Sequence record: OZ035762.1
Strand: one strand, 5' to 3'
DNA from: Felixounavirus LF82P1
DNA: 64,000 nucleotides
Within the stretch, counting starts at the first letter, position 1. Every line of letters begins with the position of its first letter. A program made the translations under genes and the position numbers. The notes below the pieces were generated by a model. That model worked only from the letters and a program-made list of their open reading frames with translations, had not been told where the DNA came from and made no database searches. This document shows positions 58,181 to 63,585 of this stretch, piece by piece.

Positions 58181-58257
58181 CTCTGTTTAGCTCAGCTTGG
58201 TAGAGCGTTCCGTTTGGGGCGGTAAGGCCGGAGGTTCAAGTCCTCCAACAGAGACCA
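58181..58257 (+). tRNA. tRNA-Pro (anticodon TGG)
   Basis: acceptor CTCTGTT/AACAGAG, anticodon loop TTTGGGG, T-arm GGAGG-TTCAAGT-CCTCC, CCA encoded. Confidence 0.8.
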
Positions 58258-58264
58258 AATTAAT

Positions 58265-58342
58265 GTTCCAGTAGACAAAATGGTATAGTCACCACTCTTT
58301 CAAAGTGGACATCTGAGGGTTCAAATCCCTTCTGGAACGCCA
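58265..58342 (+). tRNA. tRNA-Glu (anticodon TTC)
   Basis: acceptor GTTCCAG/CTGGAAC, anticodon stem CCACT/AGTGG loop CTTTCAA, T-loop TTCAAAT, CCA. Confidence 0.75.
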
Positions 58343-58344
58343 GT

Positions 58345-58425
58345 TTTGACAGAAGACCAAATACAGCAAACTTAATCTTATTCATCTGAAGGTAAATCGG
58401 ACAAAGAAGAGATTTGGTCTGGTCA
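58345..58425 (+). repeat. structured repeat copy 1 (AGACCAAAT ... ATTTGGTCT helix enclosing about 45-nt insert)
   Basis: 9-bp inverted repeat; conserved AGAAGACC..TACAGCAA box. Confidence 0.45.
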
Positions 58426-58433
58426 TTAAGAAT

Positions 58434-58510
58434 TGCGGGTATAGAGAAAGGGCGTCTCACATGTCTCATTAGCATGGTATCGGCAGGTTCGACTCCTGCA
58501 CCCGCCTCCA
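58434..58510 (+). tRNA. tRNA with anticodon CAT (Met/Ile-lysidine type), atypical acceptor
   Basis: D-stem GAGA/TCTC, anticodon stem CATGT/GCATG loop CTCATTA, T-arm GCAGG-TTCGACT-CCTGC, CCA; 1-72 pairing imperfect. Confidence 0.45.
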
Positions 58511-58583
58511 AATTTACAGAAGACCGTTTACAGCAACATTTATTAAATTTTTAGCGGAAAAATTGAAAGATACGGTCTGGTAA
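58511..58583 (+). repeat. structured repeat copy 2 (AGACCGT ... ACGGTCT helix)
   Basis: Box AAATTTACAGAAGACCGTTTACAGCAA identical to copy 4. Confidence 0.45.
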
Positions 58584-58593
58584 TACTAAACAT

Positions 58594-58670
58594 GGTTAGG
58601 AAGCACATAAGGTATGTGCGGTCGCCTGTTAAGCGAATGGCACAGGGTTCGAATCCCTGACTAACCGCCA
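58594..58670 (+). tRNA. tRNA-Asn (anticodon GTT)
   Basis: acceptor GGTTAGG/ACTAACC, D-stem GCAC/GTGC, anticodon loop CTGTTAA, T-arm CAGGG-TTCGAAT-CCCTG, CCA. Confidence 0.75.
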
Positions 58671-58739
58671 AATTTAGGAGAGAAGCGATTGCTCACCGAT
58701 TTGTAAGGTGCAAGTCCTTAGCCTGAATAGAAATTAAAT

Positions 58740-58827
58740 GTGTCGTTATCCCGTAGATGGTAGCGGTGGGGACTGTAAATCCCTTGTCATTGAGACTCGG
58801 TAGGTTCGACTCCTACACGGCACACCA
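58740..58827 (+). tRNA. tRNA-Tyr (anticodon GTA), long variable arm
   Basis: acceptor GTGTCGT/ACGGCAC, anticodon stem GGGGA/TCCCT loop CTGTAAA, variable arm about 15 nt, T-arm GTAGG-TTCGACT-CCTAC, CCA. Confidence 0.75.
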
Positions 58828-58832
58828 ATAAA

Positions 58833-58910
58833 GGTTATGTAGTTTAATTTGGTTAAAATACTCCCCTGTCACGGGAGATGATGAGGGTTCAAATCCCTTC
58901 GTAACCGCCA
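58833..58910 (+). tRNA. tRNA-Asp (anticodon GTC)
   Basis: acceptor GGTTATG/CGTAACC, anticodon stem CTCCC/GGGAG loop CTGTCAC, T-loop TTCAAAT, CCA. Confidence 0.8.
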
Positions 58911-58965
58911 ATTTTGAGAGGGCTATTTAGCCCCTCCCTTAAAGGGTTCTTACGAGTATCCTTTA

Positions 58966-59046
58966 AAGGAGCAGAAGACCAAATACAGCAAGTTACTTAA
59001 AATTTCAAGCCAATTTAATTTTGAAAAATTTAAAACTTGGTCTGGC
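58966..59046 (+). repeat. structured repeat copy 3 (AGACCAA ... TTGGTCT helix)
   Basis: Same conserved box AGAAGACCAAATACAGCAA; compensatory stem changes vs copies 2/4. Confidence 0.45.
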
Positions 59047-59051
59047 TCAAC

Positions 59052-59190
59052 AAATTTACAGAAGACCGTTTACAGCAAAACTTAAACAATCTATTTCTCG
59101 GTAAAGAAAAGGCGAAGGTTCGATTCCTTCACTCGGCAGATGTCGAGTTGGTGTAATGGTAGCACTTAAGATGATAAACAACGGTCTGGT
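59052..59190 (+). ncRNA. candidate Y-RNA-like element: terminal helix (AGACCGTT/AACGGTCT) enclosing a circularly permuted tRNA-like module
   Basis: Order T-arm GAAGG-TTCGATT-CCTTC (59114-59130), acceptor 3' ACTCGGC, 4 nt, acceptor 5' GTCGAGT (7 bp complementary), D-arm-like GGTGTAATGGTAGCAC; no anticodon arm. Confidence 0.35.
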
Positions 59191-59338
59191 AATTATCTTT
59201 GTAGATAAGTTATTAAGCTTACCTGTGAGTATGCGACCACAAAGGGTGAAAGGGTAAATTCTAGATTTAAACCCAAAAAGGCACATCGCTACAGACCTTA
59301 AGCAAGTCTGGGTAGCTTATCTACAAAGATAATTTAAT

Positions 59339-59414
59339 GGAAGTGTAGCAGAATGGTGATGCGGCAGACTTTTAATCTGACAGGCGATGGGTTCGAATCC
59401 CTCCACTTCTACCA
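59339..59414 (+). tRNA. tRNA-Lys (anticodon TTT)
   Basis: acceptor GGAAGTG/CACTTCT, anticodon loop CTTTTAA, T-loop TTCGAAT, CCA; paralog of Lys-CTT tRNA with compensatory anticodon-stem change. Confidence 0.7.
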
Positions 59415-59418
59415 ATAT

Positions 59419-59495
59419 GGTTCAGTCGCAGATAAGGTAATGCAAGGGTCTCATAAGCCCTATGAATGTGGGTTCGAATCCCATCTGAACCTCCA
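59419..59495 (+). tRNA. tRNA-Met (anticodon CAT)
   Basis: acceptor GGTTCAG/CTGAACC, anticodon stem AGGGT/GCCCT loop CTCATAA, T-arm GTGGG-TTCGAAT-CCCAT, CCA. Confidence 0.75.
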
Positions 59496-59497
59496 AT

Positions 59498-59572
59498 TGT
59501 GGGTTAGCATAAATGGTAATGCAAACGGCTGATAACCGTTAGAAGAGGGTTCGATACCCTCACCTACAACCA
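59498..59572 (+). tRNA. tRNA-Ile (anticodon GAT)
   Basis: acceptor TGTGGGT/ACCTACA, D-stem GCAT/ATGC, anticodon stem AACGG/CCGTT loop CTGATAA, T-arm GAGGG-TTCGATA-CCCTC, CCA. Confidence 0.75.
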
Positions 59573-59587
59573 AGTTCAATAAAGTTG

Positions 59588-59616
59588 TTGACATTGAGAT
59601 GTGACTACTTTATAGT
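59588..59616 (+). promoter_or_regulatory. sigma70-like promoter TTGACA-N17-TATAGT inside tRNA cluster
   Basis: Near-consensus -35 and -10 with 17-nt spacer. Confidence 0.55.
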
Positions 59617-59820
59617 AACCTTAGTTTTCGTTGCGTAGCGTCTATTTTGCAAATTTAAAATAAATGCAAACGACAATGTTTTTCTGGCAGTAGCTTGATA
59701 GGCTAAACACCAGTGAGGTCTTCCAATCCCTCATCAAAGAATTTGGCGTACTCGCCCACGGTATGATTAATAAGGTGGGCATCTTTAAGGGCTTTCTAAG
59801 AGAGTCTTTAAAGATAATTA

Positions 59821-59902
59821 CGGGGCGTATCTCAGCGGTCTTCTAAACCGCCGTTAACCGAGTAAGTGGAGTATGCGGGTTCGAGTCCTGCCGCCTCGAC
59901 CA
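59821..59902 (+). tRNA. atypical tRNA-like gene, anticodon loop CTTCTAA (TCT, Arg-type), D-arm apparently absent
   Basis: acceptor CGGGGCG/CGCCTCG, perfect anticodon arm GCGGT-CTTCTAA-ACCGC, T-arm GCGGG-TTCGAGT-CCTGC, CCA; only 7 nt between acceptor and anticodon stem, 23-nt region before T-arm. Confidence 0.4.
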
Positions 59903-60045
59903 ATTTAGTTAGCAGATTACTTAGACGACCTAAGCGGGTCTTCCTGTAGGGAGGTGGTCTGTATCTCATGTTTTCCAGAACATGTAAATAATCTGAGAAG
60001 GGGCTTTACAGTGTTGAGATAATACGGTAAGCTTCGAATTATAGT

Positions 60046-60128
60046 ATGGGACGATGTTAAGACTCTAAGGCATGAGCAACGGCCTCCAAAACCGTTTCAA
60101 AGGGGTTCAACTCCTCCGTCCCATGCCA
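60046..60128 (+). tRNA. tRNA-Trp (anticodon CCA), atypical extended D region
   Basis: acceptor ATGGGAC/GTCCCAT, anticodon loop CTCCAAA with stem ACGGC/ACCGT, T-loop TTCAACT, CCA; about 8 extra nt before D-stem. Confidence 0.45.
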
Positions 60129-60141
60129 AAGTCTTATTAGG

Positions 60142-60229
60142 GGTAGGTAGCGGCTAATGGCAGCCAAACAGTCTTGAAAACTGTTGCCACTGTAGAGATA
60201 CGGTGAGGGTTCGACTCCTTTACTTACCG
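60142..60229 (+). tRNA. tRNA-Ser (anticodon TGA), long variable arm
   Basis: acceptor GGTAGGT/ACTTACC, 3-bp D-stem, anticodon arm ACAGT-CTTGAAA-ACTGT, about 20-nt variable arm, T-loop TTCGACT; CCA not encoded. Confidence 0.7.
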
Positions 60230-60388
60230 CCTAATAAGATTTTTAAAGCCAAGCTTCATTCGGATGTTGCTTTGGTATCCCTCGTGTATTGTCGTACACA
60301 CTGATAAAACACCTAGTAGGTGTCACGGAGAAGAGATAATATCAAGCTCTCCAAAGGTTCTAGTCACCGGATTAAACAAGACTATGCA

Positions 60389-60412
60389 AAGACCTTTTAG
60401 GTCTTTTTAGAG
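60389..60412 (+). terminator. hairpin + T-run inside tRNA cluster spacer
   Basis: AAGACC-TTTT-AGGTCTT followed by TTTT. Confidence 0.4.
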
Positions 60413-60487
60413 GGCTTCTAAGGTTATTACAGCTTGTTGTGGAACCTTGTTGCTTAGGTTCTTAGAAGTTCTCTAAAAAGATTTAAT

Positions 60488-60565
60488 GGGAGATTGACGG
60501 TAATTGGTAAACCTATCTCGCTTAGAACGAGATGTTTGAGGGTTCGAATCCCTTGTCTCCTACCA
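60488..60565 (+). tRNA. tRNA with anticodon TAG (Leu by anticodon), short variable arm
   Basis: acceptor GGGAGAT/GTCTCCT, anticodon arm ATCTCG-CTTAGAA-CGAGAT, T-arm GAGGG-TTCGAAT-CCCTT, discriminator A, CCA. Confidence 0.6.
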
Positions 60566-60572
60566 AATTAAT

Positions 60573-60648
60573 GCAGGTGTAGCAAAATGGTTATGCGGCT
60601 GACTCTTAATCAGTAAGACGATGGGTTCAATTCCCTCCACCTGTACCA
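60573..60648 (+). tRNA. tRNA-Lys (anticodon CTT)
   Basis: acceptor GCAGGTG/CACCTGT, anticodon arm GCTGA-CTCTTAA-TCAGT, T-loop TTCAATT, CCA. Confidence 0.75.
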
Positions 60649-60654
60649 AACAAT

Positions 60655-60730
60655 GGGGTCATAGTTTATATGGTTAAAATTCGAGTTTTGCAAACTTGGG
60701 AACTGAGTTCAATTCTCAGTGACTCCACCA
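60655..60730 (+). tRNA. tRNA-Ala (anticodon TGC)
   Basis: acceptor GGGGTCA/TGACTCC (G3-U70), anticodon arm CGAGT-TTTGCAA-ACTTG, T-arm CTGAG-TTCAATT-CTCAG, CCA. Confidence 0.75.
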
Positions 60731-60736
60731 ATTAGT

Positions 60737-60811
60737 GCATCCATAGTTTAAACGGGAAAATTACAGTCTTCCAAACTGAGGTTGAGGGTTCGATTCCCTC
60801 TGGATGCTCCA
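60737..60811 (+). tRNA. tRNA-Gly (anticodon TCC)
   Basis: acceptor GCATCCA/TGGATGC, anticodon loop CTTCCAA, T-arm GAGGG-TTCGATT-CCCTC, CCA. Confidence 0.8.
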
Positions 60812-60825
60812 AATTAAGGTGTGAT

Positions 60826-61239
60826 ATGAAAATATGCAGTACTTGCAGAATACCAAAAGATGAAAGCTTATTCCATAAGAATAAGAACAAGAAAGACGGT
60901 CTTCAAAGTCAATGCAAAGATTGTGCAAGACTCCGTGATGCAAAGAGTTATCAAGCAAATGATAAAAGGAAAGAGGCTATTAAAAGCACTCGTAACTTCA
61001 AGAGAGAGCATAACAAGACTCTAGCTAGAAGGTACAAAGCTTTATGCAAATGTCATATATGTGGTGAGAAAGAACCAGTTGCACTGGATTTACACCATAC
61101 AGACCCTTCCCAGAAAGATTTGAATCCTGCATCACTTTATTCATACTCCACAAAAAGATTAAAAGATGAAATCAGAAAGTGCATTGTCTTGTGCGCTAAC
61201 TGTCACAGAAAAGTACATGCTGGTATCATAAAAGTTTAA
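60826..61239 (+). CDS. HNH homing endonuclease inserted in tRNA cluster
   Basis: 137 aa; CxxC..CxxC and HNH motif CHICG..LDLHH..CANCHRKVH. Confidence 0.65.
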   Translation: MKICSTCRIPKDESLFHKNKNKKDGLQSQCKDCARLRDAKSYQANDKRKEAIKSTRNFKREHNKTLARRYKALCKCHICGEKEPVALDLHHTDPSQKDLNPASLYSYSTKRLKDEIRKCIVLCANCHRKVHAGIIKV

Positions 61240-61240
61240 T

Positions 61241-61317
61241 GCTGCTTTCGTATAATTGGCTATTACACATCCCTTGTAAGGATGGAAATGCAGGTTCGAG
61301 TCCTGTGAGCAGCACCA
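61241..61317 (+). tRNA. tRNA-Thr (anticodon TGT)
   Basis: acceptor GCTGCTT/GAGCAGC, anticodon arm CATCC-CTTGTAA-GGATG, T-arm GCAGG-TTCGAGT-CCTGT, CCA. Confidence 0.8.
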
Positions 61318-61412
61318 ATTCAGAGGTCAAGTGAAAGACCGCTGGTGTCAACTGAAGACCGTAACAAATTCCACGGAGTTGAGTTAGCGGCACAACTTCA
61401 GACCTCTTTCAT
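61318..61412 (+). ncRNA. candidate structured RNA (about 95-nt imperfect rod-like hairpin) between tRNA-Thr and tRNA-Val
   Basis: Nested inverted repeats CAGAGGTCAAGT/ACTTCAGACCTCT, CCGCT/AGCGG, TCAACT/AGTTGA, CCGT/ACGG; contains GAAGACCGT box. Confidence 0.3.
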
Positions 61413-61487
61413 ACTCGCTTAGTTTATATGGTAAAACATCACCCTTACAAGATGAAGAAAAAGGTTCAAGTCCTTTAGTGAGTACCA
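61413..61487 (+). tRNA. tRNA-Val (anticodon TAC)
   Basis: acceptor ACTCGCT/AGTGAGT, D-stem GTTT/AAAC, anticodon loop CTTACAA, T-arm AAAGG-TTCAAGT-CCTTT, CCA. Confidence 0.7.
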
Positions 61488-61488
61488 T

Positions 61489-61566
61489 GTTCCAGTATCC
61501 CAATTGGCAGAGGATGCAAGCTCAAACCTTGTACTAGTGACGGTTCGAATCCGTCTTGGAACACCA
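61489..61566 (+). tRNA. tRNA with anticodon CAA (Leu by anticodon), short variable arm
   Basis: acceptor GTTCCAG/TTGGAAC, D-loop AATTGGCAG, anticodon arm GCAAG-CTCAAAC-CTTGT, T-arm GACGG-TTCGAAT-CCGTC, discriminator A, CCA. Confidence 0.6.
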
Positions 61567-61571
61567 ATTTT

Positions 61572-61647
61572 GCAGGATTAGTTCAAATGGATAGAGCAAC
61601 AGTCTACGAAGCTGTTAATAGGGGTTCGAATCCCTTATCCTGCGCCA
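61572..61647 (+). tRNA. tRNA-Arg (anticodon ACG)
   Basis: acceptor GCAGGAT/ATCCTGC, D-stem GTTC/GAGC, anticodon arm ACAGT-CTACGAA-GCTGT, T-loop TTCGAAT, CCA. Confidence 0.8.
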
Positions 61648-61666
61648 ATTTAAAGAGGCTATTTAG

Positions 61667-62224
61667 ATGAGATATTTGAAGTATGCTTCATGGATTTTCT
61701 TAGCTTTGTTAGAACCATTTGCAGCAATCTTAGCAGTTATCTTAGCACCTTTTGTAGTTCCATTTTACAGTGAGAAGAAAGGACACTTACCTTTCGGATT
61801 TAGATGGATGGAAACTTATGACAACCCAATTGATGGTGATGAAGGTCACGTTAAAAGATGGGCTAATATTAGATGGATTGGTAAGCTTGGTGTCTATATG
61901 CAGAGAGTCGGTTGGCTCTGGAGAAACAAAGCTTATAACTTCTCTTACCATGTGTTAGGAAGAGATGTAAAAGATGTTACTAAGTGGAAAGGTAATATCA
62001 ACGTAAGTTCTAACCCTGAAGATAATCAGACAGGTTATCTCCTAATGTGGAACAGCAATGCTTGGGGATTATTCGCTTTTATACCATCAATTAAAATCTT
62101 TGGTAAACAGTTCTACTGGAGAATTTATATTGGGTGGAAGCTAAAAAGTGTTGTCCCAGAAGAAAGAGCATTCTCAAGGGAAAGAGTTATGTTGGCATTC
62201 TTTATTCATCCACTAAGAAATTAA
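61667..62224 (+). CDS. hypothetical membrane protein
   Basis: 185 aa; N-terminal hydrophobic segments. Confidence 0.5.
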   Translation: MRYLKYASWIFLALLEPFAAILAVILAPFVVPFYSEKKGHLPFGFRWMETYDNPIDGDEGHVKRWANIRWIGKLGVYMQRVGWLWRNKAYNFSYHVLGRDVKDVTKWKGNINVSSNPEDNQTGYLLMWNSNAWGLFAFIPSIKIFGKQFYWRIYIGWKLKSVVPEERAFSRERVMLAFFIHPLRN

Positions 62225-62232
62225 AGATTTAA

Positions 62233-62308
62233 AGGGGATTAGTTTACAAGGTTAAAACCTCGGTCTTTGAAATCGAAGAAGTTGGTTCAATTCCAACATC
62301 CCCCGCCA
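62233..62308 (+). tRNA. tRNA-Gln (anticodon TTG)
   Basis: acceptor AGGGGAT/ATCCCCC with unpaired 1-72, D-stem GTTT/AAAC, anticodon arm TCGGT-CTTTGAA-ATCGA, T-arm GTTGG-TTCAATT-CCAAC, CCA. Confidence 0.7.
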
Positions 62309-62310
62309 AT

Positions 62311-62389
62311 GCTCCATTACTCCAATTGGCAGAGAGGCCAGACTTAAAATCTGTGTTATGTATCGGTTCGAATCCGATATGGAGTACCA
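62311..62389 (+). tRNA. tRNA with anticodon TAA (Leu by anticodon), short variable arm
   Basis: acceptor GCTCCAT/ATGGAGT, D-loop AATTGGCAG, anticodon loop CTTAAAA, T-arm ATCGG-TTCGAAT-CCGAT, discriminator A, CCA; paralog of CAA tRNA. Confidence 0.55.
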
Positions 62390-62394
62390 AATTT

Positions 62395-62470
62395 AGCGGT
62401 ATAGCATAACTGGCAATGCAACAGTCTCTGAAGCTGTCTTATTAAGGTTCAAATCCTTATGCCGCTGCCA
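62395..62470 (+). tRNA. tRNA-Gln (anticodon CTG)
   Basis: acceptor AGCGGTA/TGCCGCT, D-stem GCAT/ATGC, anticodon arm ACAGT-CTCTGAA-GCTGT, T-arm TAAGG-TTCAAAT-CCTTA, CCA. Confidence 0.7.
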
Positions 62471-62501
62471 CTTCTAAGGGTTCTTACGAGAGTCCTTAAA
62501 T

Positions 62502-62577
62502 GTGGCCTTATCATAAATGGTAATGACCCATGCTGTGAACATGGTCTATACGGGTTCAAATCCCGTAGGTCACCCCA
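62502..62577 (+). tRNA. tRNA-His (anticodon GTG)
   Basis: acceptor GTGGCCT/AGGTCAC, D-stem TCAT/ATGA, anticodon arm CCATG-CTGTGAA-CATGG, T-arm ACGGG-TTCAAAT-CCCGT, discriminator C, CCA. Confidence 0.8.
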
Positions 62578-62583
62578 ATTTAT

Positions 62584-62659
62584 AGTCCAAGTAGCTTATA
62601 TGGTTAAAGCGCGTGTCTGAAAAACATGAGAAGAGGGTTCAAATCCCACTGGACTACCA
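62584..62659 (+). tRNA. tRNA-Phe (anticodon GAA)
   Basis: D-stem GCTT/AAGC, anticodon arm CGTGT-CTGAAAA-ACATG, T-loop TTCAAAT; acceptor boundaries uncertain by 1-2 nt. Confidence 0.6.
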
Positions 62660-62675
62660 ATTTCAAAGGTGCTTA

Positions 62676-63410
62676 ATGAAAGAGATGACAGAACAAGGTA
62701 AGGAGATTTTTAATCTCTTAAAAACCGGTAAAGGGTTTTCTAACCCACTTATTACTGGTGCAGCAGTTCTCGGTGGAACCGTAGCTGCTTCTACATCACT
62801 TGTAAGCTCTATTAGTTCTGTAACAGACCCTACAATGCAGGAGAAACTTGTTGCTGCTGGACTTACAACAGTCCTTCTAAACAGCTTTACAACAAGCCTT
62901 ACAAGCACTACAGCAACTACTAAAACTCTGACAGACTACGGTCAAAAGTCTATTGATGAGTTTTCATCACGTATGCAGGTAGCAAAGGGGTATTCCAATG
63001 TTATGGGTGCAGCAGGAGAACAAGTTGGTTGTACACCATTCAGTGGTATCATGGGTGTTGCTACAGAGTATGGTCAAAAAGCTATTGACATGATGAACAG
63101 TACACTAGATAGTGTTAATGGTGTGTTAAGTGACTTACAAGATGCTATTGATAAGGGTCTTGATACTGTTTCTGATTTAGCTAATCAGGCTGTTAGTAAG
63201 ATTAATGAAGGTATTTCAAAGATTACAGCTTATGCAGATGAAGTTGTGCAGATGATTGAAGAAGAAGCTTCCCTTATTGCAGAGTACCTTAAAACGAATA
63301 TCAATGGGTTCTTAGCAGGTATCTTACCAGACTGGTTTGATGATGCCTGTAAAACTGGTGTGATTGACACTATTGCAACACCAGAAATGAAGAGCGCATT
63401 ACAGAAATAA
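62676..63410 (+). CDS. hypothetical Ser/Thr-rich protein
   Basis: ORF track 62613 trimmed to first ATG downstream of tRNA-Phe (AAGGTG RBS-like). Confidence 0.5.
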   Translation: MKEMTEQGKEIFNLLKTGKGFSNPLITGAAVLGGTVAASTSLVSSISSVTDPTMQEKLVAAGLTTVLLNSFTTSLTSTTATTKTLTDYGQKSIDEFSSRMQVAKGYSNVMGAAGEQVGCTPFSGIMGVATEYGQKAIDMMNSTLDSVNGVLSDLQDAIDKGLDTVSDLANQAVSKINEGISKITAYADEVVQMIEEEASLIAEYLKTNINGFLAGILPDWFDDACKTGVIDTIATPEMKSALQK

Positions 63411-63412
63411 AT

Positions 63413-63505
63413 GGAAGATTAACCCTAAAAGGTAAGGGAGCAGTTTGCTAAACTGCCAGTAGCTGAGAAATCGGTGTACCAGTTCAAGTCTGGTATCTTC
63501 CTCCA
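63413..63505 (+). tRNA. tRNA-Ser (anticodon GCT), long variable arm
   Basis: acceptor GGAAGAT/ATCTTCC, 3-bp D-stem, anticodon arm GCAGT-TTGCTAA-ACTGC, long variable arm, T-arm ACCAG-TTCAAGT-CTGGT, CCA. Confidence 0.8.
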
Positions 63506-63509
63506 ATTT

Positions 63510-63585
63510 GAATCCGTGACAGAAATGGCTATGTGCCTGTCTGCAAAACAGGTTTATAAGGGTTCGAGTCCCTTCGGATTCTCCA
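63510..63585 (+). tRNA. tRNA-Cys (anticodon GCA)
   Basis: acceptor GAATCCG/CGGATTC, anticodon arm CCTGT-CTGCAAA-ACAGG, T-arm AAGGG-TTCGAGT-CCCTT, CCA. Confidence 0.8.

What the first reader, a model, noticed from the sequence alone, without database searches (positions are those of the whole stretch)
59821..59902. Atypical tRNA-like gene lacking a recognisable D-arm
There is a good acceptor stem (CGGGGCG/CGCCTCG, one G-U), a perfect anticodon arm GCGGT-CTTCTAA-ACCGC (anticodon TCT), a canonical T-arm and an encoded CCA. Only 7 nt separate acceptor and anticodon stems, and a 23-nt segment (CGTTAACCGAGTAAGTGGAGTAT, containing a D-loop-like CCGAGT..GTGG) sits between the anticodon and T arms. 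The D-loop-like element appears displaced to the variable-arm position.
Basis: seen in the sequence. Interest (0 to 1): 0.4.

Follow-up and report, generated by a model that had tools for sequence, protein, structure and literature searches.

The report
Phage arginine tRNA with relocated D-arm
This is a real, conserved phage gene for an arginine tRNA (anticodon UCU) in which half of the D-arm has moved to the far side of the anticodon arm; it belongs to a large, apparently undescribed family found almost only in phages, and shows that the tRNA fold can be built with a different strand order.

Summary
Window 59821-59902 (+) has a 7-bp acceptor stem, a 7-nt connector, a normal anticodon arm (UCU), a 23-nt segment, a normal T arm and an encoded CCA. 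Rfam tRNA scores it 31.7 bits (threshold 29); ARAGORN misses it. It is not a decayed tRNA. Scans of viral contigs recovered 186 distinct members. All stems co-vary, and a new 3-bp helix joins connector bases 4-6 to the three bases just before an invariant UAANYGGA (pairs 1-2 standard in 109/109; 97.5% of cells paired overall, against 63% shuffled). In standard numbering, the connector reads U8-A21-N22-23-24-25-N26 and the later block reads 10-13, A14, R15, N16, Y17, G18, G19, A20. So nucleotides 10-20 sit where the variable loop normally is. Of 186 members, 184 carry Arg anticodons, and the ArgRS identity elements are kept. In this 25-tRNA array it is the only AGA reader, and AGA is about 28% of Arg codons. 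Relatives carry a canonical tRNA-Arg(UCU) in the same slot, and an HNH cassette that disrupts the gene brings its own canonical copy. Best reading: a working tRNA-Arg with rearranged topology. Expression and charging are untested. No description was found in the searchable literature.

The parts
59821..59827 (+). Acceptor stem, 5' strand (CGGGGCG), positions 1-7
   Evidence: Pairs with 59892-59898. Across the family, 99.1% of cells pair and all 7 pairs show changes on both sides.
59828..59830 (+). U-A-U junction: U8, then A (A21 or A9 equivalent), then N22-equivalent U
   Evidence: T and A are invariant in 109/109 members; the third base is T in 94/109. The assignment to canonical numbers is inferred from collinearity.
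59831..59833 (+). CUC: strand of the D-stem-like helix (equivalent to canonical 23-25)
   Evidence: Co-varies with 59860-59862. Pair types: CG91/GC10/UA7/AU1; UA50/GC30/CG20/AU9; CG65/GC26/UA2/other16. RNAalifold predicts this helix from scratch.
59834..59834 (+). Single spacer A between the D-stem-like helix and the anticodon stem (position 26 equivalent)
   Evidence: Always exactly one base: A59/C37/G11/T2 of 109.
59835..59851 (+). Anticodon arm GCGGU-CUUCUAA-ACCGC; anticodon UCU at 59842-59844 (reads AGA, and AGG by wobble)
   Evidence: 5 bp stem and 7-nt loop with U33 and A37. The stem co-varies (95% paired, 5/5 pairs with double changes). With the whole arm left free in the scan, the anticodon was TCT in 31 of 32 intact sequences and CCT in 1.
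59852..59859 (+). Linker CGUUAACC between the anticodon stem and the relocated D-stem strand (bulge, variable-loop-like)
   Evidence: Length and sequence vary by subfamily (4, 5 or 8 nt: AGYC, UGAAA, CGUUAAYC).
59860..59863 (+). GAGU: relocated D-stem 5' strand (canonical 10-13); GAG pairs with 59831-59833
   Evidence: Covariation as above. It lies immediately 5' of the D-loop-like block in all members.
59864..59870 (+). AAGUGGA: relocated D-loop (A14 A15 G16 U17 G18 G19 A20). G18-G19 would dock on the T loop; A20 is the main ArgRS identity element
   Evidence: GAG-UAA-N-Y-GG-A was kept in every true member even when the whole segment was left free in the scan. The commonest family version, AAUUGGA, is identical to the D-loop of the canonical tRNA-Arg(UCU) of Ro111lw. 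Role of A20: PMC9976931.
59871..59874 (+). GUAU linker ending in an invariant U (Y48 equivalent, potential Levitt partner of A15)
   Evidence: The last base is T in all 109 sequences of A1, and the base before it is A in at least 90%.
59875..59891 (+). T arm GCGGG-UUCGAGU-CCUGC
   Evidence: Canonical GGTTCRA T loop. 99.1% of cells pair across the family and 3/5 pairs show double changes.
59892..59902 (+). Acceptor stem 3' strand CGCCUCG, discriminator A73 (59899), encoded CCA (59900-59902)
   Evidence: Sequence. Across the family the discriminator is G63/A39/T5/C2 of 109, and CCA is encoded in 62/109.
59588..59616 (+). Sigma-70-like promoter TTGACA-17-TATAGT upstream of the element (candidate start of its transcript)
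   Evidence: 11/12 consensus match on the same strand, about 205 nt upstream. This region is about 100% conserved in Ro111lw. Function is inferred, not shown.

Best explanation
Window 59821-59902 encodes a functional arginine tRNA (anticodon UCU, reading AGA and probably AGG). Its D-domain is wired differently from every described tRNA.

[quoted passage not shown] The D stem is formed by long-range pairing between CUC (59831-59833), right after U8-A, and GAG (59860-59862), which lies downstream of the anticodon arm. That GAG is followed directly by a D-loop sequence, U-AAGUGGA, matching 13, A14, R15, 16, Y17, G18, G19, A20.

In effect, nucleotides 10-20 of a canonical tRNA-Arg have been moved from between positions 9 and 21 to the variable-loop position. 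The secondary structure becomes a three-way junction: the acceptor stem, a long arm made of the D-like helix plus the anticodon stem, and the T arm.

Shown here:
- The helices, by covariation.
- Retention of the conserved core nucleotides and of the ArgRS identity set.
- Restriction of the architecture to Arg anticodons and to phages.
- Interchangeability with canonical tRNA-Arg(UCU) genes.

Inferred, not shown:
- The molecule folds into the usual L-shape. The D-like helix would stack on the anticodon stem, G18-G19 would dock on the T loop, and A15-U48 and U8-A14 would form as usual.
- The three new backbone joins (8 to 21, about 44 to 10, and 20 to 48) connect residues that are neighbours in the canonical fold.
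- The RNA is made from the array transcript, processed by RNase P, charged by host ArgRS through A20, C35, U36 and A73, and used to read AGA codons, which are common in the phage and, from general knowledge, rare in E. coli.
For: Anatomy.

Size of the family: near-full-length homologs at 83-90% identity occur in unrelated phage groups (Felixounavirus, Sugarland-like, PBECO4-like jumbo, Mydovirus, Justusliebigvirus, Kuravirus and a T4-like Pectobacterium phage). Pattern scans gave 186 distinct well-formed members.

Structure: on a MAFFT alignment of 109 distinct members, 97.5% of cells pair, against 63.1% in shuffles (0/500 reach the observed value) and 36-45% when partners are slid. All 3 pairs of the new helix show changes on both sides. 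RNAalifold predicts the identical structure unaided. The rival local hairpin pairs in only 62.7% of cells with no double changes.

Core: GAG-UAA-N-Y-GG-A was kept even when the whole segment was unconstrained. TATCTCA was invariant when the connector was unconstrained.

Identity: 184/186 members carry Arg anticodons (UCU 105, ACG 60, UCG 15, CCU 2, GCG 1, CCG 1). The scan for anticodons without C35 gave only 2 well-formed genes. The discriminator is A or G in 102/109. ArgRS identity is A20, C35, position 36 and A/G73 (PMC9976931).

Functional slot: there is no other AGR reader among the 25 ARAGORN tRNAs of the window. AGA is 27.6% and AGG 9.4% of Arg codons in window ORFs. Only 5 of 74 element-bearing loci also have an ARAGORN tRNA-Arg(tct) call, and one of those overlaps the element itself.

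Natural swaps: Ro111lw has a canonical tRNA-Arg(tct) in the same slot between about 100% identical flanks. Sf14 lists Ile_GAT, Arg_TCT, Ser_TGA in the same order. In K18PH07C1, an HNH cassette that splits the gene carries a canonical tRNA-Arg(tct).

Phage-only distribution: 1 hit in 185,579 species genomes, and that contig is phage DNA. No match in 5,426 complete E. coli genomes.

Expression context: same strand as the array, with a near-consensus promoter upstream.
Against: - There are no expression, processing, aminoacylation or decoding data. Function is inferred entirely from sequence comparison.
- For the window copy alone, nearest-neighbour energies prefer a local CCG/UGG hairpin (-25.3 kcal/mol) over the CUC/GAG helix (-22.5). 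The helix has a base-pair probability of only about 0.01, and the whole fold is no more stable than shuffled sequence (z = 0.04). The D-like helix would therefore need tertiary contacts to form, as canonical D stems often do.
- The third pair of the helix is non-standard in 16 of 109 members. These need a register shift with a bulge.
- The mapping to canonical numbers, the tertiary contacts and the L-shape are inferred, not modelled.
- Several conserved blocks were partly imposed by the search patterns: TAANYGGA, and CTTCTAA.
- A few phages carry both this gene and a canonical tRNA-Arg(tct), so strict equivalence is not proven.
Confidence: 0.78

Rival explanations
1. Decoy or regulator. The RNA is a tRNA-Arg mimic that is not used in translation. 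It might be a sponge or inhibitor for a host tRNA-targeting defence nuclease, or a binder of ArgRS or another tRNA-handling enzyme.
For: The architecture is unusual and phage-only. Defence systems that cut tRNAs, including systems suggested to cut D-loops, and phage counter-tRNAs are documented (PMC12916289; PMC10264068; titles). A few phages carry it alongside a canonical tRNA-Arg(tct).
Against: It is the only AGR reader in arrays that otherwise cover nearly all amino acids. Canonical tRNA-Arg(UCU) replaces it one-for-one in near-isogenic relatives, and comes with the cassette that disrupts it. The family spans all Arg codon boxes with the matching anticodon-loop contexts (CUACGAA for ACG, CUUCUAA for UCU), which is what decoding requires and a decoy would not. 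The acceptor end, the T arm and all ArgRS identity elements are kept.
Confidence: 0.1
2. Functional tRNA-Arg whose rewired D-domain is specifically an escape from host immunity. It does the same job in translation, but the altered connectivity makes it a poor substrate for a nuclease or modifying toxin that recognises or cuts the canonical D-arm or core of tRNA-Arg. This is a sub-hypothesis about selective advantage and is compatible with the best explanation.
For: The architecture is confined to phages, is spread across unrelated phage groups at 83-90% identity (which suggests horizontal spread under selection), and is absent from hosts. Retron Eco2 is reported to cut host tRNAs including tRNA-Arg, and type I-A retrons are suggested to cut tRNA D-loops (PMC12916289). 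Phage tRNAs are proposed to evade tRNases through sequence changes (PMC10264068).
Against: No defence system is known that targets the D-arm of tRNA-Arg specifically. The anticodon loop is unchanged from the host type. A single origin followed by anticodon switching within the Arg family would explain the Arg restriction without any immune pressure. Nothing here tests nuclease sensitivity.
Confidence: 0.25
3. Degenerate tRNA pseudogene. A former tRNA-Arg(UCU) lost its D-arm and picked up junk in the variable region.
For: The Rfam score is marginal (31.7 against 29) and ARAGORN makes no call. Some relatives have a normal tRNA-Arg in the slot. Some records flag it as tRNA-OTHER.
Against: There are 186 distinct sequences with compensatory changes in all four helices and an invariant core. 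Homology between unrelated phages stops exactly at the gene borders. The family model scores the window copy at 80.7 bits.
Confidence: 0.01
4. Truly D-armless tRNA of the mitochondrial type, or a class II tRNA. On this view the 7-nt connector is an unstructured replacement loop, and the 23-nt segment is an ordinary long variable arm or hairpin.
For: The single-sequence MFE fold draws a small hairpin (CCG/UGG) inside the 23-nt segment and leaves the connector unpaired.
Against: That hairpin pairs in only 62.7% of family cells with no double changes. By contrast, connector bases 4-6 co-vary with the 3 nt before UAANYGGA using all four Watson-Crick pair types. Pairing with the second GAGUA is excluded because that motif is absent from the 20-nt subfamilies.
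Confidence: 0.04

Closest known systems
Canonical bacterial and phage tRNA-Arg(UCU), for example the Ro111lw gene in the same slot (L010 549-622) or E. coli argU (the latter from general knowledge)
   Same: Shared features: a 7-bp acceptor stem, A/G73 and CCA; the anticodon arm with loop CUUCUAA; the T arm with GGTTCRA; the D-loop sequence AAUUGGA with A20; the G10-C25-type D-stem pair; A26; U8; and the same genomic slot and presumably the same job.
   Different: The strand order differs. In the canonical tRNA the D-arm is a local hairpin (10-13, loop, 22-25) placed before the anticodon arm. Here 21-26 follow U8 directly, and 10-20 lie after the anticodon arm. The D stem is therefore closed by the anticodon arm, not by a D-loop, and the D-loop sequence is an open strand leading into the T stem.
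D-armless mitochondrial tRNAs, for example metazoan or nematode mt-tRNA-Ser(UCU/GCU) (PMC7609411)
   Same: A short connector lies between the acceptor and anticodon stems. There is no local D hairpin, the anticodon can be UCU, and standard tRNA finders miss the gene.
   Different: Those tRNAs really lack D-stem and D-loop nucleotides and rely on flexibility. This RNA keeps a co-varying D-stem helix and a complete D-loop sequence including G18-G19-A20, only relocated. It also has a fully canonical T arm, and it is phage-encoded and Arg-specific.
Non-canonical 8/4 and 9/3 tRNAs (tRNA-Sec-like, allo-tRNAs), some of them in phages (PMC5389517)
   Same: They are naturally occurring structural variants of the cloverleaf, found by sequence mining and present in phage tRNA clusters. 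Some 9/3 allo-tRNAs carry AGR anticodons.
   Different: They change helix lengths in the acceptor/T branch and keep the normal order of arms. Here helix lengths are standard (7/5) and the order of the D-arm strands is changed.
Permuted and split tRNA genes (the red alga Cyanidioschyzon merolae; archaeal split tRNAs), from general knowledge and not tested here
   Same: The genes have parts in a non-canonical order.
   Different: In those cases processing and ligation restore a canonical mature tRNA. Here the 5' and 3' ends are normal, and nothing suggests re-ligation, so the mature RNA itself would have the rearranged topology.
Class II tRNAs (Ser, Leu, Tyr) with a long variable arm
   Same: There is a long segment (20-25 nt) between the anticodon and T arms, giving a total length of about 79-82 nt.
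   Different: Class II tRNAs have a self-contained variable hairpin plus a normal D-arm. Here the long segment does not form a conserved hairpin and instead supplies half of the D stem and the D-loop.

Membership tests
tRNA (Rfam RF00005; canonical cloverleaf) | Score at or above the curated gathering threshold | tested here: met
   31.7 bits against a threshold of 29, model positions 1-71. This is marginal; the other tRNAs in the array score 43-65 bits.
tRNA (Rfam RF00005; canonical cloverleaf) | 7-bp acceptor stem, discriminator base and 3' CCA | tested here: met
   59821-59827 pairs with 59892-59898; A at 59899; CCA at 59900-59902. Co-varies across the family.
tRNA (Rfam RF00005; canonical cloverleaf) | Anticodon arm: 5-bp stem, 7-nt loop, U33, purine at 37 | tested here: met
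   GCGGU-CUUCUAA-ACCGC. Co-varies across the family.
tRNA (Rfam RF00005; canonical cloverleaf) | T arm: 5-bp stem with a GTTCRA loop | tested here: met
   GCGGG-TTCGAGT-CCTGC. 99.1% of family cells pair.
tRNA (Rfam RF00005; canonical cloverleaf) | D-arm as a local hairpin between position 9 and position 26 | tested here: not met
   Only 7 nt separate the acceptor and anticodon stems. cmscan deletes 15 D-arm positions, and ARAGORN fails in all modes. A D-stem-like helix exists, but its partner strand lies after the anticodon arm.
tRNA-Arg (substrate of bacterial ArgRS) | C35 and U/G36 in the anticodon | tested here: met
   The anticodon is UCU in the window. 184 of 186 family members carry NCU or NCG Arg anticodons. 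Identity rule: PMC9976931.
tRNA-Arg (substrate of bacterial ArgRS) | A20 in the D-loop (the main determinant for E. coli ArgRS) | tested here: inconclusive
   An A immediately follows the GG of the D-loop-like block (59870) and is invariant, including in the scan that left this segment free. Whether it occupies the A20 pocket in three dimensions cannot be tested here.
tRNA-Arg (substrate of bacterial ArgRS) | Discriminator A73 or G73 | tested here: met
   A at 59899. The family has G63/A39/T5/C2 of 109.
tRNA-Arg (substrate of bacterial ArgRS) | Aminoacylation with arginine and use on the ribosome | not testable with these tools
   Only indirect evidence is available: it is the sole AGR reader in the array, it is interchangeable with canonical tRNA-Arg(UCU), and AGA is 27.6% of Arg codons.
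Rearranged-D-arm phage tRNA-Arg family (defined here; model R1) | Layout: acceptor, U-A-N, 3-nt strand, 1 spacer, anticodon arm, 4-8-nt linker, complementary 3-nt strand, UAANYGGA, 4-6-nt linker ending in U, T arm | tested here: met
   The window copy fits every element. R1 scores it 80.7 bits, E about 4e-23, but note it was one of the 109 training sequences.
D-armless tRNAs of the mitochondrial type | No D stem; an unstructured replacement loop | tested here: not met
   Connector bases 4-6 form a co-varying helix with a downstream strand.
Class II tRNA (long variable arm) | A self-paired variable-arm hairpin together with a normal D-arm | tested here: not met
   The candidate hairpin (columns 38-40 with 47-49) pairs in 62.7% of cells with 0 double changes. 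There is no local D-arm.

The most novel reading that the evidence does not exclude
The rearranged tRNA-Arg is a fully active translational adaptor whose altered backbone connectivity evolved, and spread horizontally among unrelated phages, because it makes the phage's arginine decoding immune to a host system that recognises, cuts or modifies the canonical D-arm or core of tRNA-Arg. It would then be both the first natural tRNA with a transposed D-arm half and a new kind of structural counter-defence, as opposed to one based on anticodon-loop changes.
Probability: 0.25. Interest if true: 0.92.

Novelty: new variant of a known kind. Interest (0 to 1): 0.8.

Why it matters
The order of the four arms is treated as a constant of tRNA. 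Known exceptions shorten, lengthen or delete arms, or permute the gene and then restore the normal RNA. Here, strong covariation points to a large natural family (at least 186 distinct sequences, from enterobacterial phages to environmental, jumbo and Z-genome-type phages) in which half of the D-arm lies on the other side of the anticodon arm. The family still keeps every nucleotide used for the tertiary core and for recognition by ArgRS. If it is charged and used, several things follow.

- **Fold:** the L-shape can be reached by a different strand topology. That is directly testable by structure determination and bears on tRNA folding, evolution and design, including orthogonal tRNAs.
- **Annotation:** standard tRNA finders miss or mis-type these genes, so phage tRNA repertoires and codon-usage analyses undercount Arg. 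Records currently show 'tRNA-OTHER' or nothing.
- **Enzyme recognition:** it offers a natural test of how ArgRS, RNase P, EF-Tu, modification enzymes and the ribosome read the D-domain.
- **Biology:** the phage-only distribution raises the question of why phages keep this form, possibly to escape tRNA-targeting immunity.

Tried and rejected
- **Pairing of the 5' connector with the second GAGUA (59869-59873).** Rejected because that motif is missing in the 20-nt subfamilies (GGAUCAAU).
- **Local CCG/UGG hairpin in the 23-nt segment (the single-sequence MFE).** Rejected on family data: 62.7% paired and no double changes.
- **Extension of the helix by U8-A and A9-U with a bulged U.** Both pairs are invariant, so this cannot be tested. 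It may equally reflect tertiary U8-A14-type contacts.
- **Intron-containing or mitochondrial-type tRNA.** ARAGORN with -i, -mt and relaxed thresholds finds nothing at this site.
- **Other Rfam families.** Only weak, sub-threshold tmRNA and miRNA noise appears nearby.
- **Same architecture with non-Arg anticodons.** A dedicated scan gave 13 loci, only 2 of them well formed (GAU and UAU). These were not followed up.
- **Host or prophage origin.** No match in complete E. coli genomes. The single hit in species genomes is phage DNA binned into a MAG.
- **Literature.** Nine full-text searches and six papers read found no description of this layout. Subscription-only literature could not be searched.
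- **Not used.** The metagenome scan, protein-homology searches and structure prediction (no RNA 3D tool is available).
Full report
**What is there.** The window is a Felix O1-like phage, 100% identical to Felixounavirus LF82P2 over the tested stretch. Positions 58181-63585 hold a same-strand array of 25 tRNA genes called by ARAGORN. The finding lies inside this array, between tRNA-Ile(GAT) and tRNA-Ser(TGA).
- acceptor stem CGGGGCG/CGCCTCG
- 7-nt connector TATCTCA
- anticodon arm GCGGT-CTTCTAA-ACCGC
- 23-nt segment CGTTAACCGAGTAAGTGGAGTAT
- T arm GCGGG-TTCGAGT-CCTGC
- discriminator A, and CCA

Rfam's tRNA model matches 59821-59899 at 31.7 bits, just above its threshold of 29. To do so it deletes the D-arm and inserts 20 nt in the variable region. 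ARAGORN does not call the gene in any mode. GenBank records either ignore it or label it 'tRNA-OTHER Nd_NNN' or an untyped 'tRNA'.

**It is not a decayed tRNA.** A sensitive BLAST of 59790-59930 against phage genomes found the expected Felixounavirus homologs. It also found near-full-length matches (83-90% identity) whose homology is confined to the gene itself, in unrelated phages: Sugarland-like Klebsiella phages, PBECO4-like jumbo phages, Mydovirus, Justusliebigvirus, a Kuravirus podophage and a T4-like Pectobacterium phage. Placing these side by side showed that the acceptor and anticodon stems differ through fully compensatory changes, while TATCTCA, the anticodon loop and the long segment hardly change.

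**Defining the family without circularity.** I scanned IMG/VR with patterns that freed one part at a time.
- With the whole anticodon arm free, 45 contigs matched. Together with the earlier loci they gave 33 distinct 82-mers, 32 of them intact. The anticodon was TCT in 31 and CCT in one.
- With the 5' connector free, no new loci appeared, so TATCTCA always accompanies that form of the segment.
- With the long segment free, new variants appeared with lengths of 20, 23 and 25 nt. All kept GAG-TAA-N-Y-GG-A. The second GAGTA of the window copy was not conserved.

**The key result.** Bases 4-6 of the connector co-vary with the three bases immediately 5' of TAANYGGA. The observed combinations are CTC/GAG, CGG/CCG, CCC/GGG, CAC/GTG, CGC/GCG, CAG/CTG, CTG/CAG, CTT/AAG, CAT/ATG, TCC/GGA and ACC/GGT. 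The Arg(ACG/UCG/GCG) members add GCC/GGC, AAC/GTT and AGA/TCT.

On a structure-blind MAFFT alignment of the 109 sequences (A1), the proposed structure pairs 97.5% of cells. Shuffled controls give 63.1% (0 of 500 reach the observed value) and slid partners give 36-45%. All three pairs of the new helix show changes on both sides: CG91/GC10/UA7/AU1; UA50/GC30/CG20/AU9; CG65/GC26/UA2, with 16 exceptions that fit a bulged register. RNAalifold predicts exactly this structure on its own. The alternative local hairpin favoured by single-sequence folding has no comparative support.

**What the architecture means.** The connector U-A-U-C-U-C-A is collinear with canonical U8, A21, N22, 23, 24, 25, N26 and runs straight into the anticodon stem (27). 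The block after the anticodon arm, G-A-G-U-A-A-G-U-G-G-A, is collinear with canonical 10-13, A14, R15, N16, Y17, G18, G19, A20. An invariant U sits immediately before the T stem, where Y48 would be.

The commonest family version of the loop block, AAUUGGA, is identical to the D-loop of the canonical tRNA-Arg(UCU) of phage Ro111lw. So the D-arm is split and reordered, not missing: nucleotides 10-20 have been moved to the variable-loop position. The secondary structure is a three-way junction whose long arm (D-like helix, one spacer, anticodon stem) has about the same number of stacked layers as the canonical D/anticodon stack.

The three new backbone joins (8 to 21, about 44 to 10, and 20 to 48) connect residues that are neighbours in the canonical L-shape. 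I state this from general knowledge of tRNA structure; it is an inference, not a modelled result.

**Why it is an arginine tRNA.** Two further scans looked for the same architecture with other anticodons. Anticodons lacking C35 gave 13 loci, of which only two were well formed (GAU and UAU). Anticodons with C35 but a non-T at position 36 gave 97 loci. The census of 186 distinct well-formed members is UCU 105, ACG 60, UCG 15, CCU 2, GCG 1, CCG 1, GAU 1 and UAU 1, so 184 of 186 are Arg.

E. coli ArgRS identity rests on A20 in the D-loop (the main determinant), C35, position 36 and A/G73 (Giegé and Eriani 2023, PMC9976931). The family keeps an invariant A directly after GG. It keeps C35 and U/G36, and it has A or G as discriminator in 102 of 109 members. 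Several contigs carry two members with different Arg anticodons.

**Why it is probably used.**
- In the window it is the only AGR reader. The array's other tRNA-Arg (ACG, 61572-61647) is canonical.
- AGA is 27.6% and AGG 9.4% of Arg codons in the window's ORFs of at least 120 aa.
- Only 5 of 74 element-bearing loci also have an ARAGORN tRNA-Arg(tct) call, and one of these overlaps the element itself.
- Ro111lw, whose flanks are about 100% identical to the window, has the element and about 40 nt upstream of it replaced by a canonical tRNA-Arg(tct) with its own upstream sequence. Identity resumes exactly at the CCA.
- Shigella phage Sf14 lists Ile_GAT, Arg_TCT, Ser_TGA, Leu_TAG in the same order, with a normally scoring Arg (PMC12482277).
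- In Klebsiella phage K18PH07C1, a cassette is inserted inside the element. It consists of an HNH endonuclease gene (phrog_2255, E = 3e-34) whose 3' end overlaps a canonical tRNA-Arg(tct). The displaced 3' end of the element lies just downstream, while the relative Mydo has the gene intact. A selfish insert that breaks this gene carries a replacement tRNA-Arg(UCU), which is what one expects if the broken gene supplied that function.
- A near-consensus sigma-70-type promoter lies about 205 nt upstream on the same strand, and no sizeable + strand ORF overlaps the gene.

**Distribution.** The enterobacterial-phage form of the core was found in only one of 185,579 bacterial and archaeal species genomes. 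That contig, from a MAG, is phage DNA: it carries a PurZ-type synthetase, a phosphohydrolase, an endolysin-like peptidase and interspersed tRNAs. No match exists in 5,426 complete E. coli genomes. Within the limits of these searches the family is phage-specific. The cellular scan used only the narrow pattern, so cellular members of other subfamilies are not excluded.

**Caveats.**
- There is no direct evidence of transcription, processing, charging or decoding.
- For the window copy alone, thermodynamic folding does not favour the CUC/GAG helix (-22.5 against -25.3 kcal/mol; pair probability about 0.01), and the sequence folds no better than shuffles. The helix rests on comparative evidence and presumably on tertiary contacts.
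- Some invariant blocks were partly imposed by my patterns. I note in the parts list and evidence where a block was left free.
- The numbering map and the L-shape are inferences.
- Why phages keep this form is unknown. Escape from D-arm- or core-directed tRNA-targeting immunity is attractive, because such systems exist (PMC12916289; PMC10264068). A single origin with anticodon switching inside the Arg identity set would also explain the pattern.

**Novelty.** Nine full-text searches and six papers, including the 2020 review of natural non-canonical tRNAs (no mention of phages) and the allo-tRNA paper (8/4 phage tRNAs only), gave no description of this layout. I rate it a new structural variant of a known kind (tRNA), with the reservation that subscription-only literature could not be searched.

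**Verdict.** The gene is best explained as a functional tRNA-Arg(UCU) with a transposed D-arm half, one member of a large phage-specific family. Confidence that the conserved rearranged structure is real is very high. Confidence that it is a working Arg adaptor is about 0.78.

Noticed in passing
window 60046-60128 (+): A second tRNA-like gene missed by ARAGORN's standard mode and by Rfam tRNA. It has anticodon CCA (Trp), an 8-bp acceptor stem and a 4-bp T stem (aragorn -mt), and scores only 23 bits against Rfam tRNA-Sec. It is conserved in 233 Ounavirinae records and is not annotated as a tRNA in any listed row. That includes Sf14, which would explain that paper's count of '19 amino acids'. 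It would be the array's missing tRNA-Trp and resembles the 8/4 phage tRNAs of PMC5389517.
   Followed up: partly
L011 649-1131 (Klebsiella phage K18PH07C1); L004 698-1207 (Riker); Felixounavirus hits H53-H56, just after window 59906: HNH homing-endonuclease genes repeatedly sit beside or inside the rearranged tRNA-Arg. In K18PH07C1 the HNH ORF's 3' end overlaps a canonical tRNA-Arg(tct), so the cassette is a single mobile unit of nuclease plus replacement tRNA. In Riker the HNH gene starts 12 nt after the tRNA. In several Felixounaviruses an insertion begins about 4 nt after the CCA.
   Followed up: partly
L169 and L180 (IMG/VR contigs): Two genes with the full rearranged architecture and good stems carry isoleucine anticodons (GAT in L169, TAT in L180) instead of Arg. 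They could be identity switches or mis-sense adaptors.
   Followed up: no
L057 3345-4559 (-) (MAG contig CAZLSE010000011.1): The only 'cellular genome' hit is phage DNA encoding a PurZ-type 2-aminoadenine-pathway synthetase (phrog_1211, E = 6e-107) next to a phosphohydrolase. This phage presumably has a Z-genome, and it also carries a family member.
   Followed up: partly
window 59781-59815 (+): An inverted repeat, ATCTTTAA (59781-59788) and TTAAAGAT (59808-59815), lies just upstream of the gene. The Ro111lw replacement breakpoint falls at about 59783, so the exchanged unit may include this hairpin. It could be a processing signal or a recombination boundary.
   Followed up: no
window 60141-60231 (+): The annotated tRNA-Ser(TGA) scores only 31.1 bits with Rfam tRNA but 36.9 bits with the tRNA-Sec model. 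Together with the Arg and Trp genes, this short stretch of the array holds three structurally unusual tRNAs in a row.
   Followed up: no
L040 13332-13429; L062 4054-4149: ARAGORN calls unusually long (96-98 nt) 'tRNA-Arg(tct)' genes here. The L062 call overlaps a family member itself. The L040 call lies 250 nt from a CCT-anticodon member and may be another variant of the architecture.
   Followed up: no
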